Notes under the pieces: generated by a model | Told to the model about the DNA's origin: nothing | Databases searched by the model: none | What the model saw: only the letters and a program-made list of their open reading frames with translations | Translations under genes and position numbers: made by a program | Sequence record: KY705409 | DNA: 41,289 nucleotides | Source of the DNA: Escherichia phage vB_EcoM_ECOO78 | Direction: 5' to 3' (one strand) | Shown here: one piece after another, positions 3,889 to 20,074 of the stretch | Position numbering within the stretch: the first letter of the stretch is position 1 | Layout: every line of letters begins with the position of its first letter

Positions 3889-4866
3889 TTATGCTACAAC
3901 AGAATTGCTACTTGCCTGGTTATCGTTTGCGGCTGCTGCTTCCATTATGCGCCCCTGCGCTGTCTGGAAATAGGTTTCATCAAGTTCAATTCCTATGAAG
4001 TTACGGCCTTCATTGATGCAGGCGACTCCTGTTGACCCGCTCCCCATAGTGAAATCTAGAACCGTTTCGCCAGGGTTTGAATATGTCCTGATGATGTCAG
4101 CCAGCAGTGCTACCGGCTTCTGTGTTTGGTGAAGGCCGGTATAATCCTTTTTGTACTGAAGAACGTTAGATTTGTATTTTGCACCATCCGCCAGGTTAAA
4201 CCTGCGGGCAAACCTGCGGTCAATTTCTAACATTTCAGCATAAGTCATAAGCCAGTCACACACACTAAGCCCATAGTGCGCAATAATCTGGTTGTATGTC
4301 TTTTCAGTACACAGCCCGAACTGCGTTGATTCAACATAAAAAAAGTGTTCCGCGCGCCTGTGACCTAAATCAGTGTTTATCTGCTTTATATTTCTGCCAA
4401 TGTATTCCATGATTTTTTTGGCATAATCCCTTAGCGGATGCTGTGCCAGCGTGTCATATTTCTTGAAGAACACCACTAAATCTTCAAAGTATGAAACAGG
4501 CGCTTTATTTACCAACAGCGAGTTAGAGAAATGGTCTTTCAGCCACATTAGTCGATAACTGAAAGGCAGATTTCCATGCGCCGCTGTGATTAACTTGCTG
4601 GTGTAAGGTTCCTGGCTGAACAGAATAAGAGCGCCGTTAGTTCGCAAAACGCGGTTGCATTCTTCAAAAATGGCCTGCGGAGAAATAGCGTTATCCCATT
4701 CAGCGTTCGCAATTCGTGAATAGCGTTCTTCACCCTTTCCCATTCCGCCAGCGGTGCCATACGGCGGATCACACAGAACCAAATCAACGCTACCGGCTGG
4801 AATAGACTTCATAACTTCCAGGCAATCACCTAAATGCAATTCGTATTTATTCACAATGCTACCCAT
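3889..4866 (-). CDS. DNA methyltransferase (N6-adenine/N4-cytosine type, beta-class motif order)
   Basis: DPPY catalytic motif near N-terminus (LVLCDPPYG) and SAM-binding FTMGSGSTGVAC near C-terminus; AT-richer than surroundings. Confidence 0.85.
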   Translation of the reverse strand: MGSIVNKYELHLGDCLEVMKSIPAGSVDLVLCDPPYGTAGGMGKGEERYSRIANAEWDNAISPQAIFEECNRVLRTNGALILFSQEPYTSKLITAAHGNLPFSYRLMWLKDHFSNSLLVNKAPVSYFEDLVVFFKKYDTLAQHPLRDYAKKIMEYIGRNIKQINTDLGHRRAEHFFYVESTQFGLCTEKTYNQIIAHYGLSVCDWLMTYAEMLEIDRRFARRFNLADGAKYKSNVLQYKKDYTGLHQTQKPVALLADIIRTYSNPGETVLDFTMGSGSTGVACINEGRNFIGIELDETYFQTAQGRIMEAAAANDNQASSNSVVA

Positions 4867-11467: not shown

Positions 11468-11504
11468 AATTATCGTTCATTCGCCATCATTTAAAGTATT
11501 CGCA

Positions 11505-11534
11505 ATTGTATGTTACTACATGGCGACGTTGCAA
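11505..11534 (-). promoter_or_regulatory. Candidate sigma70-type leftward early promoter (-35 TTGCAA, 18-nt spacer, -10 TACAAT)
   Basis: Hexamers read on minus strand; inverted repeat TTACTAC/GTAGTAA overlaps spacer and -35. Confidence 0.4.
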
Positions 11535-11548
11535 CCAGTAGTAATGTT

Positions 11549-11560
11549 CATTGACGTCAA
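11549..11560. promoter_or_regulatory. Perfect 12-bp palindrome ATTGACGTCAAT (candidate operator)
   Basis: Self-complementary 12-mer in the divergent intergenic region. Confidence 0.4.
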
Positions 11561-11659
11561 TCAAGCCGCGATGTGCAAAAAACGCATAGCTGATGTACAG
11601 CTAAGGTTTGTTGATTAGCGAGCGTGACGCTGATCTAAACAATGTTAGTTACAAATAAG

Positions 11660-11689
11660 TTGACAGTATAACAACACGTCAGCCATAAT
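11660..11689 (+). promoter_or_regulatory. Candidate sigma70-type rightward early promoter (-35 TTGACA, 18-nt spacer, -10 CATAAT)
   Basis: ttgacagtataacaacacgtcagccataat, about 50 nt upstream of the exonuclease start. Confidence 0.45.
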
Positions 11690-11740
11690 TCACCGCAGTT
11701 AATCCGAATTCATGTTAAATAATAATTGCGAGGTAACATA

Positions 11741-13913: not shown

Positions 13914-14141
13914 ATGGCACAACCGGCACAGAAACAAAGCACGTATCTGACGCCACAGGAACTGGTGCTGCGCTGGAATGGCGCAGTTACCACCGGAACC
14001 CTGGCGAACTGGCGCAACAAAGGCAAAGGGCCAGCCTATACGAAATTTGGCTCACGCGTTCGCTACTCCATCACCAGCGTGGAAGCGTATGAAGCAAAAC
14101 ACATGATTGGAGCAAACGACAATGACACGACCACCGGCTAA
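13914..14141 (+). CDS. Small HTH DNA-binding protein (AlpA/excisionase-like family)
   Basis: YLTPQELVLRW...TLANWRNKGKGPAYTKFGSRVRY pattern. Confidence 0.45.
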   Translation: MAQPAQKQSTYLTPQELVLRWNGAVTTGTLANWRNKGKGPAYTKFGSRVRYSITSVEAYEAKHMIGANDNDTTTG

Positions 14142-15293: not shown

Positions 15294-15719
15294 GTGGAAA
15301 GTAAAAAGTGCTTTAAGTGCGGGGAGGTTAAAAGCCTCTCCGATTTTTATAAGCATAAAGGGATGGCTGATGGCCATCTTAACAAGTGCAAAGATTGCAC
15401 CAGAAGTGATGCCAAGTCACACCGACTTGAAAATATTGACCAGATACGCGCTTACGACCGTAAACGCGGAAACCGTCAAGATCAATCATACGTCAAAAAT
15501 TACCGCCAGCAGTATCCAAACAAATACCGCGCACATACGATGGTAAACAACCATTTGCGATATGGGAATATCACAAAGAAACCATGCGAAATCTGCGGCA
15601 GTGAGCAATCAGTTGCCCATCACGACGATTACTTAAAGCCGCTTGATGTTCGTTGGTTGTGTCAGGCGCATCACAAGCAATGGCACGCTGCAAACGGTGA
15701 AGGAAAGAACGCAGTTTGA
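15294..15719 (+). CDS. HNH endonuclease family protein
   Basis: Cys pairs CFKCG...CKDC and C-terminal CEICG...AHHDDY...HH motif; GTG start with GGGGG RBS; AT-richer than flanks. Confidence 0.6.
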   Translation: MESKKCFKCGEVKSLSDFYKHKGMADGHLNKCKDCTRSDAKSHRLENIDQIRAYDRKRGNRQDQSYVKNYRQQYPNKYRAHTMVNNHLRYGNITKKPCEICGSEQSVAHHDDYLKPLDVRWLCQAHHKQWHAANGEGKNAV

Positions 15720-15725
15720 CCAAAG

Positions 15726-15751
15726 AAAAACCCCGCCGAAGCGGGGTTTTG
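15726..15751. terminator. Intrinsic terminator after rightward early operon
   Basis: aaaaaccccgccgaagcggggttttgtg: 6-bp GC stem, 4-nt loop, T-tract. Confidence 0.65.
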
Positions 15752-16228
15752 TGTCACGTGACGCTGTGATGCGAGATACAGATCACCTGCCTTATTGGAA
15801 TCACTTGTCGGGTAAGTTCCAGTCTGTGCGAATGTCGCACTGGGATGCGCTTTCACGTTGCGAGGTAACACCCTGGGGGTTGGAAGTGTTCGCAAAAGCG
15901 CATCACGGTGCGTTGTGGTGCTGTGCATCAGCGCTTCCTTCGTCGCCTTGGTGAGCTGCAACCACACCAACTAGCATTTGGATTTACCACAACGTAAAGA
16001 GCACTTTCATCGCTGCAACATGACGGTAAATAGGATTCACTGCATCACGTACAAAATGCTCTTAACTGTTGCGTGCCGTCCTTTCACGGCGGTCATCGTG
16101 TATCGCTCGACAGCGTGACTCTCTATAACTGACAATATAATCCTATATCACTCCAGTGCATTCTGCAACCATATTTACCATTTATTCATCTCCTCGATCA
16201 TCTTCTGTAGGTAGTCCACTCTGTAGGT

Positions 16229-16257
16229 TACAGGTTCGATTCCTGTAGGGGTCGCCA
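16229..16257 (+). other. tRNA 3'-end-like fragment (T-arm, acceptor 3' strand, CCA); attP-core or tRNA-like RNA candidate
   Basis: acagg-TTCGATT-cctgt T-arm, then aggggtc, g, CCA; no complementary 5' acceptor strand or D/anticodon arms upstream. Confidence 0.4.
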
Positions 16258-16261
16258 CCCA

Positions 16262-16288
16262 ATAGAAAGCCCGCCAGGTGGCGGGCTG
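16262..16288. terminator. Hairpin agcccgcc-aggt-ggcgggct; terminator for end of late operon and/or for the tRNA-like unit
   Basis: 8-bp GC-rich stem; U-rich stretch on minus strand (uuucuauu) after the hairpin. Confidence 0.45.
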
Positions 16289-16291
16289 TGG

Positions 16292-16636
16292 TTAGTTTCT
16301 GAATTGCAGGTAACGCATGTGGATTAGGTGATCCACAAAGGTGGAATCATAGCCAGGCACGCAATTTAGTTCATGGTGGAACCTCTCCGCATCGGTGGCT
16401 GGACGAACTGCATTGATTCCGCGCATATTCACTTCCGGGCAACCTTCGCCCTTACCTTCCGCAATCCTCACGTGTAACCGGCAACCGTTATCACCAGGCT
16501 CGTCATCCAAAGATTGCCACACCTGATAGCCACAGCAGTAGCCAACAACGTCACCACGGCTGGCAGTTTTGTACACGATACAATCACCAATTTCCGGCAC
16601 ATATGGCATGTTATTTTCTTGCTTGAATGCTTTCAC
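16292..16636 (-). CDS. Hypothetical Cys-rich protein
   Basis: 114 aa ORF, GTG start with GGGGAG RBS; last gene before terminator. Confidence 0.45.
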   Translation of the reverse strand: MKAFKQENNMPYVPEIGDCIVYKTASRGDVVGYCCGYQVWQSLDDEPGDNGCRLHVRIAEGKGEGCPEVNMRGINAVRPATDAERFHHELNCVPGYDSTFVDHLIHMRYLQFRN

Positions 16637-16645
16637 AATCTCCCC

Positions 16646-16936
16646 TTACGCCGTCAGTTCGGCGGGTTTGTCTTTGGTTAGTTGTTCCTGTTCATGGTCC
16701 GGGTCGCCGTCGATTGGCAGCAGGTTTTGCGCCCGTACCTGCGCAACTTCATTACCAGGCAGCAGGCCATAAACCCGCCACCAGCGTTCGACTGGTTCAC
16801 CTAGCGCCATAGCCAGCAATTCTGACTCCCGATAGCTGGCAAGCCCAATCAGGCGCACGCACTTGCCGTTCCCTTCCGGTCTGGCGCGCAAACCGTAAAC
16901 CAGCGCCAGGCCACCGGCTTTCAGTTCGCCTTTCAT
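16646..16936 (-). CDS. Hypothetical protein
   Basis: Start MKGELKAGG with GGTGA RBS; ATGA overlap with upstream gene stop. Confidence 0.45.
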   Translation of the reverse strand: MKGELKAGGLALVYGLRARPEGNGKCVRLIGLASYRESELLAMALGEPVERWWRVYGLLPGNEVAQVRAQNLLPIDGDPDHEQEQLTKDKPAELTA

Positions 16937-18919: not shown

Positions 18920-20074
18920 TTATTTTTCTTCGATGACGTGACCAGGGCCGTCATCGCCTTCGTTAATGTCCTTTTCTTCTATCACGTGACCAGGGCCATC
19001 ATCGTCTGGCGGGTCGCTTTCTTGCGGCTTCTTGCGCTCGATGATTTGCACATGCGGTTCTTCTTCGCTGTTTGGCTTCGTTGCTTCCACGTCGCAAGAA
19101 TAACCGTTGTCATCCATCCGGTGATCTGCGCGGGTAATCAGCCATTCGCCATCAATGCCATCGCGGAACCCCACCAGCACCAGCTTGCATTCAGCGGCAA
19201 TGGTCGGGTCACCCGGCAGCGTCACGGCAACAGTCACCTGGTTGCGCTGACGCTTCGACAGTTCGGCTTTGGCTGCGTCCAGTGCCATTGCCTGCGTTGG
19301 GTAGTATTTTCCAATGCGTTTTACCGGCTCACCTTCTCCCACCTTCACTTCGTTGCGCGCGGCCTTCTTCGTCACCTGGTAGTAAGCCACCACCGTGCCT
19401 GCGTTTTCGCGCTTCTGGCTGGTTAGCCGGAATGCGGTGCAATCCTGCGCCGTCAGCGTTATGGTTGGCAGTTCTTCGCCGCTGGCCGTCTTACCTTCGC
19501 CGCGCTTCGTGACCGTGATTTTGCCGCCTGATGGTTTCACTACGCCGTCATATTTCTTGGCCAGTCGCAGCAACAGGTTCAGGTCAGATTCATCGGCCTG
19601 GTCGGTGTGGGGTAGGGTGATTTTGGCCATGCTCTCTGACACGGCTGATTCCATGCCGTGTTCTTCGGCAATCTTCTTCACCATGTCGCCAAACTTCGTG
19701 CCTTTGGTCCAGCTACGTGATTTCTGTGTTTGCAGGTCGGTTTTGCCGCCATTCGATTTGTCATAGGTGGCAGCACGCGCCCTGATGGTCATGGTGCCTG
19801 GCCAGCCAGCTAATTCCACTTCGTCACAGATGAACAGGCCCATGCGTTGGGTCCAGTTGTCATAACCCAGGAACAGTTCCAGTTCTGCGCCTGTTTCCGG
19901 CATCTGGATTGGGTTGGCCGGTTCATCATCAGCCAGGCTGATTTCCAGCGTGTCAGATTCCAGCCCCACGCCATCAGACAGGCTAAGGCTTATCAGACGT
20001 TCATTGATTTTGGCTGTGATGTCATCGCCGTTGGCCAGTACGCGAAACGCTGGCGCAATTCCAGTCAATCCCAT
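18920..20074 (-). CDS. Tail protein D (P2 gpD-like late control/tail protein) with C-terminal tandem repeat
   Basis: 384 aa; position after U and X in P2-type order; C-terminus DDGPGHVIEEK repeated twice. Confidence 0.75.
   Translation of the reverse strand: MGLTGIAPAFRVLANGDDITAKINERLISLSLSDGVGLESDTLEISLADDEPANPIQMPETGAELELFLGYDNWTQRMGLFICDEVELAGWPGTMTIRARAATYDKSNGGKTDLQTQKSRSWTKGTKFGDMVKKIAEEHGMESAVSESMAKITLPHTDQADESDLNLLLRLAKKYDGVVKPSGGKITVTKRGEGKTASGEELPTITLTAQDCTAFRLTSQKRENAGTVVAYYQVTKKAARNEVKVGEGEPVKRIGKYYPTQAMALDAAKAELSKRQRNQVTVAVTLPGDPTIAAECKLVLVGFRDGIDGEWLITRADHRMDDNGYSCDVEATKPNSEEEPHVQIIERKKPQESDPPDDDGPGHVIEEKDINEGDDGPGHVIEEK

What the first reader, a model, noticed from the sequence alone, without database searches (positions are those of the whole stretch)
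16100..16290. tRNA 3'-end-like fragment followed by hairpin, in a ~540-bp non-coding region of a genome with no integrase
16229-16257 reads as a canonical tRNA T-arm (acagg-TTCGATT-cctgt), a 7-nt acceptor 3' strand, discriminator and CCA, with no matching 5' half. It is followed by a GC hairpin (16268-16287), preceded by three CTGTAGG direct repeats (16205, 16221, 16242) and a TATAAT-like box near 16135. This is the classic layout of an attP core taken from a host tRNA gene, yet no tyrosine or serine recombinase is visible. Alternatives: a remnant attP in an integrase-less derivative, or a transcribed tRNA-like RNA acting as a decoy or anti-defence element.
Basis: partly seen in the sequence, partly recalled or inferred. 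Interest (0 to 1): 0.7.

Follow-up and report, generated by a model that had tools for sequence, protein, structure and literature searches.

The report
Leftover of a deleted phage integration module
The tRNA-like piece is real, but it is only the last 37 bases of a phage arginine-tRNA gene, left behind when a 1.5-kb deletion removed the integrase gene, the attachment site and the rest of the tRNA; this decay is already documented in this phage group, so the finding is ordinary.

Summary
Window 16221-16257 matches nt 41-77 of the tRNA-Arg(UCU) gene of related Jilinvirus phages (HeidiAbel, PT1, Alux-21) at 37 of 37 bases. The same terminator hairpin follows at 16268-16287.

Just upstream, on the minus strand, 16154-16222 encodes the last 23 codons of the relatives' tyrosine integrase, with an internal stop.

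In intact relatives these two pieces lie about 1.49 kb apart. Between them sit the integrase, an attP site and the 5' part of the tRNA. The attP has arm-type repeats on both sides of a free-standing anticodon-arm mimic.

The window has lost all of that, and also the CI-like repressor. It is a virulent, ep3-like derivative. ep3 and ECO1230-10 carry the same junction, and there the tRNA stub has stem-breaking mutations.

The details are wrong:
- The fragment is not the attP core.
- It is not a copy of an E. coli tRNA.
- The CTGTAGG repeats are not arm sites.

A decoy-RNA role has no support. Loss of int and cI in Jilinvirus is already published (Humolli 2025; Tikhe 2018).

Side result: this integrase clade splits the host tRNA-Arg at the anticodon loop and carries a replacement tRNA. 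The deletions end in that loop motif, which suggests the integrase caused them.

The parts
16221..16257 (+). 3' 37 nt (nt 41-77) of a phage tRNA-Arg(UCU) gene. It covers the anticodon-stem 3' strand, variable loop, T-arm, acceptor 3' strand, discriminator and CCA. It is a pseudogene stub.
   Evidence: 37/37 identical to the tRNA of HeidiAbel, PT1 and Alux-21. ARAGORN and Rfam find no tRNA here, but they find the full gene in relatives.
16217..16220 (.). Deletion junction. HeidiAbel L002 3323-4809 (1,487 bp) is missing here. That stretch holds the integrase, P arm, attP core, P' arm and the first 40 nt of the tRNA.
   Evidence: blastn: window 16134-16216 = L002 3240-3322 and window 16221-16294 = L002 4810-4884. 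ep3 and ECO1230-10 are collinear across the junction with the same length.
16148..16222 (-). Integrase pseudogene stub: the last 23 codons plus the stop codon (TGA at 16150-16148), with an internal stop and changes at residues that are invariant in relatives.
   Evidence: tblastn with the HeidiAbel integrase: aa 380-402 match window 16222-16154, 65% identity, E 7.5e-5. The translation is RVDYLQKMIEEMNKW*IWLQNALE*. Invariant columns come from alignment A2.
16268..16287 (.). GC-rich hairpin, a probable bidirectional intrinsic terminator. It ends the convergent minus-strand operon and formerly ended the tRNA.
   Evidence: Terminator scan hit on the minus strand with tail TTCTATTGGG. The stem is conserved in HeidiAbel, PT1, Alux-21, MQ-4, ep3 and ECO1230-10 while the loop varies.
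15921..16147 (.). Variable non-coding filler between the conserved block and the integrase stub. It holds the TATAAT-like box.
   Evidence: Absent from HeidiAbel. 16055-16140 is shared with ep3 at 93%, and other parts have only patchy matches. No ORF longer than 46 aa.
15751..15920 (.). Highly conserved non-coding block with a long hairpin, function unknown. In intact relatives it lies just downstream of the integrase stop codon.
   Evidence: 97-99% identical in ep3, HeidiAbel, PT1, ECO1230-10 and Alux-21, and 87.6% in Arya. RNAalifold finds no covarying pairs.
15727..15750 (.). Bidirectional intrinsic terminator that closes the rightward gene 15294-15719.
   Evidence: Terminator scan. Partial Rfam matches to terminator hairpins.
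16292..16609 (-). Convergent small ORF (105 aa from the ATG, 114 aa from the GTG at 16636) whose stop abuts the hairpin. This gene slot is variable among relatives.
   Evidence: ORF list. No Pfam or PHROG hit. Different genes occupy this slot in HeidiAbel and ep3.
11468..11725 (.). Intergenic stretch where relatives carry the CI-like repressor gene. That gene is absent here, so this is the second half of the lost lysogeny module.
   Evidence: tblastn with the HeidiAbel CI-like repressor finds no hit in the window. Window 11479/11724 correspond to HeidiAbel 29840/29074. Sequence.
13914..14126 (+). Retained excisionase/regulator-like gene.
   Evidence: tblastn: 98.6% identity to HeidiAbel Bas97_0036 over 71 aa.

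Best explanation
The window is a complete genome of about 41 kb from an ep3-like Jilinvirus (Iiscvirinae) coliphage. The tRNA-like fragment is a dead stub, the last 37 nt of the phage's own tRNA-Arg(UCU) gene.

In intact relatives the locus reads, in order:
- integrase (minus strand)
- P-arm repeats
- a free-standing anticodon-arm mimic, which is the likely attP core
- P'-arm repeats
- a complete tRNA-Arg(UCU)
- a terminator hairpin

One deletion of about 1.49 kb joined the last 23 codons of the integrase to position 41 of the tRNA. It removed the integrase, all of attP, the tRNA's upstream region and the tRNA's 5' half. The CI-like repressor is also gone, so the phage is obligately lytic.

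Shown: the homology, the breakpoints and the absence of int, attP and cI.

Inferred:
- The stub has no function.
- Only the hairpin still works, as a terminator for the convergent leftward operon.
- In intact phages the tRNA is a replacement for a host tRNA-Arg gene that integration would split.
- The deletion may have been made by the integrase itself, acting on the tRNA's anticodon loop as a secondary core site.
For: Synteny and homology:
- HeidiAbel has integrase, attP spacer, tRNA-Arg(TCT) and hairpin at the syntenic place.
- The window aligns to both edges and lacks the middle 1,487 bp.
- The window is collinear with HeidiAbel genome-wide and is closest to ep3, with 89% aligned at 95.7% identity.

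Integrase stub: tblastn E 7.5e-5, with an internal stop.

The full tRNA is a real gene in relatives. In 7 distinct sequences, 100% of 147 pair cells are paired and 7 pairs show compensatory changes. None of 500 shuffles reaches that. Rfam scores it at 70 bits.

Stubs in ep3 and ECO1230-10 keep only 3/5 and 4/5 T-stem pairs.

attP anatomy:
- Arm repeats lie on both sides of the mimic, and both sets change together in Persinger.
- The mimic is nearly invariant from E. coli phages to Pseudomonas phages.
- The tRNA's own anticodon stem varies.

An integrated island with a 55%-identical integrase splits a host tRNA-Arg(UCU) at the anticodon loop. It carries a complete tRNA-Arg 136 nt inside the junction. 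The two joined halves fold as a perfect tRNA.

Literature:
- Jilinvirus int and cI are 'deteriorated or absent' in some members (PMC11990801).
- Arya has an integrase pseudogene next to tRNA-Arg, and ep3 and ECO1230-10 lack lysogeny genes (PMC5754474).
Against: - The window's stub has no substitutions in 37 nt, while its integrase stub differs from HeidiAbel at 17 of 83 nt and has lost invariant residues. Neutral decay would predict a few changes in the tRNA stub. A recent event, recombination with an int+ phage, or weak selection cannot be told apart.
- The four bases at the junction (CACT) differ at 3 of 4 positions from the predicted in-register join (TAAG). ep3 and ECO1230-10 differ from that join at one other base. 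A single origin with them is therefore likely but not proven.
- No transcript data exist.
- No close relative was seen integrated, so the attB of the Jilinvirus module is inferred from a 55%-identical integrase.
Confidence: 0.9

Rival explanations
1. The stub is transcribed and works as a tRNA-like RNA, for example as a decoy for a tRNA-targeting defence nuclease, a CCA-adding or RNase substrate, or an anti-defence element.
For: The window copy is unmutated over 37 nt, and the T-arm can still form. A weak promoter-like site lies at 16107-16136 and a hairpin lies downstream.
Against: - There is no 5' acceptor strand, D-arm or anticodon arm, and no ARAGORN or Rfam hit.
- The tRNA's own upstream region is deleted.
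- The same stub in ep3 and ECO1230-10 has stem-breaking substitutions, so the fragment is not conserved as a structure.
- The TATAAT box is not conserved in ep3, which reads TTTAAT.
- The predicted fold pairs the integrase stub with the T-stem instead of forming a tRNA-like shape, with a modest z of -2.1.
Confidence: 0.04
2. The fragment is a still-usable minimal attP core that a helper integrase supplied in trans could use to integrate the phage at a host tRNA-Arg gene.
For: It derives from a tRNA-associated integration module.
Against: - The crossover motif GCCTTCTAAGC is absent from the whole window even with one mismatch allowed.
- Arm-type repeats are absent.
- The fragment starts after the anticodon loop.
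- No E. coli tRNA matches it.
- The repressor is also missing.
Confidence: 0.02
3. The fragment was picked up independently from a bacterial tRNA by illegitimate recombination, or it is a chance resemblance unrelated to any integration module.
Against: It sits at the exact syntenic position, is identical to the relatives' phage tRNA, has the same downstream hairpin, and abuts an integrase C-terminal stub.
Confidence: 0.01

Closest known systems
The same locus in Escherichia phages vB_EcoM-ep3 (KM360178) and vB_EcoM_ECO1230-10 (GU903191)
   Same: Same position. Same integrase 3' stub fused to the tRNA-Arg 3' part, with the same junction length. Same hairpin. No int and no cI.
   Different: The junction bases differ: GGTAGTATAAGC there and GGTAGTCCACTC here. 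Their tRNA stubs are mutated, with the T-stem partly broken, while the window's is intact. Neither record annotates the remnant.
Enterobacter phage Arya integrase pseudogene next to tRNA-Arg (Tikhe et al. 2018, PMC5754474)
   Same: A lytic Jilinvirus with a decayed integrase at the same locus, next to the arginine tRNA.
   Different: Arya's deletion is smaller, about 1.17 kb, and independent. It runs from inside int to the attP core mimic and keeps the P' arm and a complete tRNA-Arg.
Intact int-attP-tRNA-Arg(UCU) module of HeidiAbel (Bas97), PT1, Alux-21, MQ-4, Persinger and PPpW-3 (Humolli et al. 2025, PMC11990801)
   Same: This is the ancestral state of the window's locus. The flanks, tRNA 3' end and terminator are the same.
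   Different: These phages keep a 403-414 aa tyrosine integrase (PF13356 + PF00589), arm repeats, the core mimic and the full tRNA. The window keeps none of these.
Int-promoted deletions of phage lambda that end at the attP core (b2-type; Parkinson 1971, cited from my own knowledge, not checked here)
   Same: Two deletion alleles, the Arya type and the ep3/window type, each end inside a CTTCTAA core-like loop. Each is an in-register join with a partly similar site.
   Different: Here the deletion removes the integrase gene itself. Integrase involvement is inferred from breakpoints only.
'Gene replacement' by integrative elements (Mageeney et al. 2020, PMC7192596, section 30; a tmRNA element in Rhodobacter)
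   Same: In an integrated relative (L017) the target gene is split and not rebuilt, and the element carries its own complete copy.
   Different: That case concerns tmRNA. Here the gene is tRNA-Arg(UCU), split at the anticodon loop. In the window itself the replacement gene is destroyed.

Membership tests
tRNA gene (Rfam RF00005 / ARAGORN cloverleaf) | A complete cloverleaf: acceptor stem with both strands, D-arm, anticodon arm and T-arm. | tested here: not met
   ARAGORN finds 0 genes in the window. Rfam gives no tRNA hit at E<=10 in 15500-16700. Only nt 41-77 are present.
attP site of an arm-binding (heterobivalent) tyrosine integrase | An adjacent functional integrase gene. | tested here: not met
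   Only a 23-codon C-terminal stub with an internal stop is present. No recombinase domains are found elsewhere.
attP site of an arm-binding (heterobivalent) tyrosine integrase | Arm-type direct repeats flanking the core. | tested here: not met
   GGTTTAGGGTAYGG has 0 matches in the window with up to 2 mismatches. Intact relatives have 1-3 copies each.
attP site of an arm-binding (heterobivalent) tyrosine integrase | A core or overlap sequence shared with the host attB. | tested here: not met
   GCCTTCTAAGC is absent from the window with up to 1 mismatch. The fragment begins 3' of the anticodon loop. No E. coli tRNA matches it.
Decayed lysogeny module of Jilinvirus (integrase pseudogene plus tRNA-Arg locus) | Syntenic position between the ssb-side operon terminator and the ParB-side operon terminator. 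| tested here: met
   Collinearity with HeidiAbel, ep3, ECO1230-10 and PT1.
Decayed lysogeny module of Jilinvirus (integrase pseudogene plus tRNA-Arg locus) | Sequence homology to both the family integrase and the family tRNA-Arg(UCU). | tested here: met
   Integrase C-terminus E 7.5e-5. tRNA 3' part plus hairpin 97-98.6% identical.
Decayed lysogeny module of Jilinvirus (integrase pseudogene plus tRNA-Arg locus) | Loss of the cI-like repressor alongside the integrase, as reported for ep3 and ECO1230-10. | tested here: met
   No tblastn hit for the HeidiAbel CI-like repressor, and the intergenic gap is shortened. Literature.
Rho-independent (intrinsic) terminator | A GC-rich stem-loop followed by a T-rich tail at the end of a transcription unit. 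| tested here: met
   Pattern scan hit on the minus strand at 16287-16268, directly after the stop of ORF 16292-16609. Termination itself was not tested.

The most novel reading that the evidence does not exclude
The stub marks a deletion made by the integrase itself.

In this phage group the attP core is an anticodon-arm mimic. Integration splits the host tRNA-Arg(UCU) at the anticodon loop, and the phage supplies a complete replacement tRNA. That replacement tRNA's own anticodon loop carries the same 11-nt GCCTTCTAAGC, so it is a second core-like site. Integrase-promoted in-register recombination between such a loop and a weakly similar site inside int would delete int and attP.

The module would then have a built-in, recurrent route from temperate to obligately lytic life. 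Arya would show this at the core, and ep3, ECO1230-10 and the window at the tRNA loop.
Probability: 0.35. Interest if true: 0.5.

Novelty: new member of a known kind. Interest (0 to 1): 0.2.

Why it matters
For this window it matters little. It explains a puzzling non-coding stretch as genomic debris, and it confirms the phage is obligately lytic because int, attP and cI are all gone. That is useful for annotation and for judging suitability for phage therapy.

The comparative by-products are of more interest:
- A clear attP anatomy for the Iiscvirinae.
- Direct evidence that this integrase clade splits a host tRNA-Arg(UCU) gene and brings a replacement.
- Breakpoint evidence that the integrase may cause its own loss.

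Together these could help explain why the lifestyle of these phages has been called enigmatic.

Tried and rejected
- I looked for integrated prophages of close relatives to read attL and attR directly. Two genome-contig scans gave only distant integrases with no tRNA nearby.
- No complete E. coli genome out of 5,426 carries the integrase.
- Every close integrase homologue examined sits between phage genes on a phage-sized or shorter contig, which is the free attP configuration. This includes the E. coli USECESBL382 contig cited as a prophage.
- Exact-pattern scans of IMG/VR and JGI metagenomes for the tRNA 3' end and for the deletion junction found nothing.
- Exact-protein look-ups of the flanking window ORFs gave nothing, or only contigs under 1 kb.
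- I tested the idea that the phage tRNA itself is the attP core. I rejected it in favour of the mimic, because the arm repeats flank the mimic and the mimic stays constant while the tRNA anticodon stem varies.
- I considered a deletion between the CTGTAGG direct repeats. Both copies survive, so I rejected it.
- RNAalifold on the conserved block 15751-15920 gave no covariation on either strand.
- A literature search for Int-promoted deletions in lambda found no usable paper in the library.

Full report
**1. The observation**

- The T-arm is ACAGG-TTCGATT-CCTGT at 16230-16246.
- The acceptor 3' strand AGGGGTC is at 16247-16253, the discriminator G at 16254 and CCA at 16255-16257.
- A GC hairpin lies at 16268-16287.
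- CTGTAGG occurs at 16205, 16221 and 16243.
- TATAAT is at 16136-16141.

The ORF-free stretch is 15720-16291, which is 572 bp. ARAGORN finds no tRNA in the window. Rfam finds no tRNA match in 15500-16700 even at E<=10. The terminator scan calls the hairpin on the minus strand, directly after the stop of ORF 16292-16609.

**2. What the window is**

The region matches Jilinvirus (Iiscvirinae) myophages of enterobacteria: vB_EcoM-ep3, ECO1230-10, Salmonella PT1, HeidiAbel_Bas97, Alux-21 and Enterobacter Arya. The window is collinear with the whole HeidiAbel genome. It is closest to ep3, with 89% aligned at 95.7% identity. It is therefore a complete ep3-like phage genome.

**3. What sits at this place in relatives**

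HeidiAbel has the following at the syntenic position:
- a 403-aa tyrosine integrase on the opposite strand
- a spacer of about 300 nt
- a complete tRNA-Arg(TCT)
- the same hairpin

PT1, Alux-21, Serratia MQ-4 and Pseudomonas phages Persinger and PPpW-3 show the same layout.

Window 16134-16216 aligns to the last 83 nt of the HeidiAbel integrase region (L002 3240-3322, 79.5%). Window 16221-16294 aligns to L002 4810-4884 at 97.3%, and to PT1 at 98.6%. The 1,487 bp in between are missing.

A tblastn with the integrase finds only residues 380-402, at window 16222-16154. The match is 65% identical with E 7.5e-5. It carries an internal stop and changes at residues that are invariant in the six intact integrases.

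The tRNA part, 16221-16257, corresponds to nt 41-77 and is identical to the intact gene.

**4. The intact tRNA is a real gene and the stubs decay**

Across 7 distinct phage tRNA-Arg sequences, all 147 pair cells of the cloverleaf are paired. Seven pairs show compensatory changes in all four helices, and 0 of 500 shuffles reach this. Rfam scores the HeidiAbel gene at 70 bits.

ep3 and ECO1230-10 carry the same integrase-stub-to-tRNA-stub fusion. Their T-stems retain only 3/5 and 4/5 pairs. That is what neutral decay predicts, and it argues against a conserved tRNA-like RNA.

**5. The attP anatomy, and why the fragment is not the core**

In the HeidiAbel spacer, a pair of arm-type repeats (GGGTACGGTTTAGGGTACGG) lies near the integrase. 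A second pair (GGTTTAGGGTATGG x2) lies near the tRNA. Between them is an isolated anticodon-arm mimic, ACCGC-CTTCTAA-GCGGA.

Across seven phages the mimic (TGTAAC[C/T]GCCTTCTAAGC[G/A]G) is the best conserved island of the spacer. PPpW-3 has a compensatory stem change. Persinger has a different repeat (GGGTGCAC) on both sides.

In a relative with an 84%-identical integrase, the tRNA's own anticodon stem differs (ACTGA/TCAGT) while the mimic is unchanged. So the mimic, not the tRNA, is the likely core.

The window has neither the arm repeat nor the core motif.

**6. What the module does when it integrates**

No close relative was found integrated. A metagenomic island with a 55%-identical integrase was.

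There the host tRNA-Arg(UCU) is split at the anticodon loop. Its 3' half lies next to the integrase (L017 9826-9782). Its 5' half lies 9.6 kb away (L017 19484-19446). Joined together, the halves are called a perfect tRNA-Arg(tct).

The island's own complete tRNA-Arg(UCU) sits 136 nt inside the junction. The corresponding distance in HeidiAbel is 127 nt.

By inference, the phage tRNA is a replacement for a host gene that integration would break. An analogous 'gene replacement' has been noted for a tmRNA element (PMC7192596).

E. coli argU shares only CCTTCTAAG with the HeidiAbel mimic. No E. coli tRNA matches the window fragment.

**7. How the deletion may have arisen (inference)**

Arya carries an independent deletion. 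It joins GCCT|TCTAAGCGG in register. The two partners are a site inside int (GCCTGCCATGCGG, L002 3461-3473) and the core (GCCTTCTAAGCGG, L002 4634-4646), which are 10/13 identical.

In ep3 and ECO1230-10 the right breakpoint falls inside the tRNA's anticodon loop, and in the window it falls just 3' of it. That loop repeats the 11-nt centre of the core.
- An in-register join of the integrase 3' site GGTAGTCAAACC with CCTTCTAAGCTGT predicts GGTAGTCTAAGCTGT.
- ep3 and ECO1230-10 read GGTAGTATAAGC(T/G)GT.
- The window reads GGTAGTCCACTCTGT.
- All have the same length.

Two independent deletions that both end in a CTTCTAA loop suggest integrase-promoted events. This resembles the lambda deletions that end at att, which I cite from my own knowledge without checking. 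Microhomology slippage is the alternative explanation.

**8. The rest of the lysogeny module**

The CI-like repressor has no match in the window, and its slot is shortened to the 11468-11725 intergenic stretch. The excisionase-like gene is retained. No recombinase domain occurs in the ORFs not syntenic with HeidiAbel.

**9. Literature**

Humolli et al. 2025 state that Jilinvirus integrase and cI-like genes are 'deteriorated or absent' in several members. They report these genes as intact only in two Pseudomonas phages, PT1 and HeidiAbel, and that lysogeny has never been observed.

Tikhe et al. 2018 describe Arya's integrase pseudogene next to tRNA-Arg. They state that ep3 and ECO1230-10 lack lysogeny genes.

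So the phenomenon is already known. The unannotated tRNA and integrase stubs are a small added detail.

**10. Caveats**

- The window's tRNA stub has no substitutions, while its integrase stub has many. A recent event, recombination or weak selection cannot be separated.
- No expression data exist.
- The attB of the Jilinvirus module is inferred from a distant relative.

**11. Verdict**

This is a new instance of a known kind of decay. Interest is low for the window itself and moderate for the comparative side results.

Noticed in passing
L002 4480-4846 (HeidiAbel); also L005, L006, L007, L008, L009, L016, L026: The attP of the Iiscvirinae integration module has P-arm repeats, a free-standing anticodon-arm mimic (TGTAACCGCCTTCTAAGCGG), P'-arm repeats and then a complete tRNA-Arg(UCU). 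The arm repeats change together on both sides in Persinger. I did not find this anatomy described in the papers I read.
   Followed up: yes
L017 9782-9826 and 19446-19484; island tRNA at 19235-19310: In a metagenomic island with a 55%-identical integrase, the host tRNA-Arg(UCU) is split at the anticodon loop into halves 9.6 kb apart and is not rebuilt. The island carries its own complete tRNA-Arg(UCU) just inside the junction, as a replacement rather than a reconstitution.
   Followed up: yes
L004 1738-1793 (Arya) compared with L002 3461-3473 and 4634-4646: Arya's integrase deletion is an in-register join between a pseudo-core inside int (GCCTGCCATGCGG) and the attP core (GCCTTCTAAGCGG). It looks as if the integrase deleted its own gene.
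   Followed up: partly
L016 (E. coli USECESBL382 contig AATBGZ010000031, 42,429 bp); L015, L026-L029: The contig cited in the literature as an E. coli prophage of this group is phage-sized. Its integrase and tRNA lie between phage genes, so the phage is not integrated at this att site. Nearly all close integrase homologues (identity 56% or more) sit on contigs of at most about 44 kb. This suggests episomal or carrier-state presence rather than integration.
   Followed up: partly
window 11468-11725: The CI-like repressor gene of HeidiAbel and PT1 is missing. Only a divergent-promoter-type intergenic stretch of about 260 bp remains between the helicase and exonuclease genes.
   Followed up: partly
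window 15294-15719 (+): A 141-aa HNH/endonuclease VII-like protein (phrog_2340, E 1.4e-40) replaces the 227-aa hypothetical gene (Bas97_0032 / ep3_0060) that relatives have here, right next to the decayed module. It may be a homing endonuclease.
   Followed up: partly
window 15751-15920: A non-coding block of about 170 nt is 97-99% identical among E. coli and Salmonella relatives, including those without an integrase. It is more conserved than the neighbouring genes and contains a long hairpin at about 15836-15916. It lies just downstream of the integrase stop codon in intact phages. No covariation could be measured, and its function is unexplained.
   Followed up: partly
window 16292-16609 (-): A small ORF next to the hairpin has no Pfam or PHROG match and no exact copy in the protein collection. 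Relatives carry different small genes in this slot, so it is a variable cargo position.
   Followed up: partly
window 3889-4866 (-): An N6/N4 DNA methylase gene (PF01555, E 6.6e-30) is present here and in ep3. It lies in a stretch that does not align to HeidiAbel, which was reported as very sensitive to restriction-modification systems.
   Followed up: no
L063-L065, L076 (IMG/VR): More distant members of the same integrase clade (44-49% identity) have a complete tRNA-Lys(UUU) divergently placed upstream of int. This hints that the arrangement of an integrase with a full tRNA recurs with other tRNA targets.
   Followed up: no
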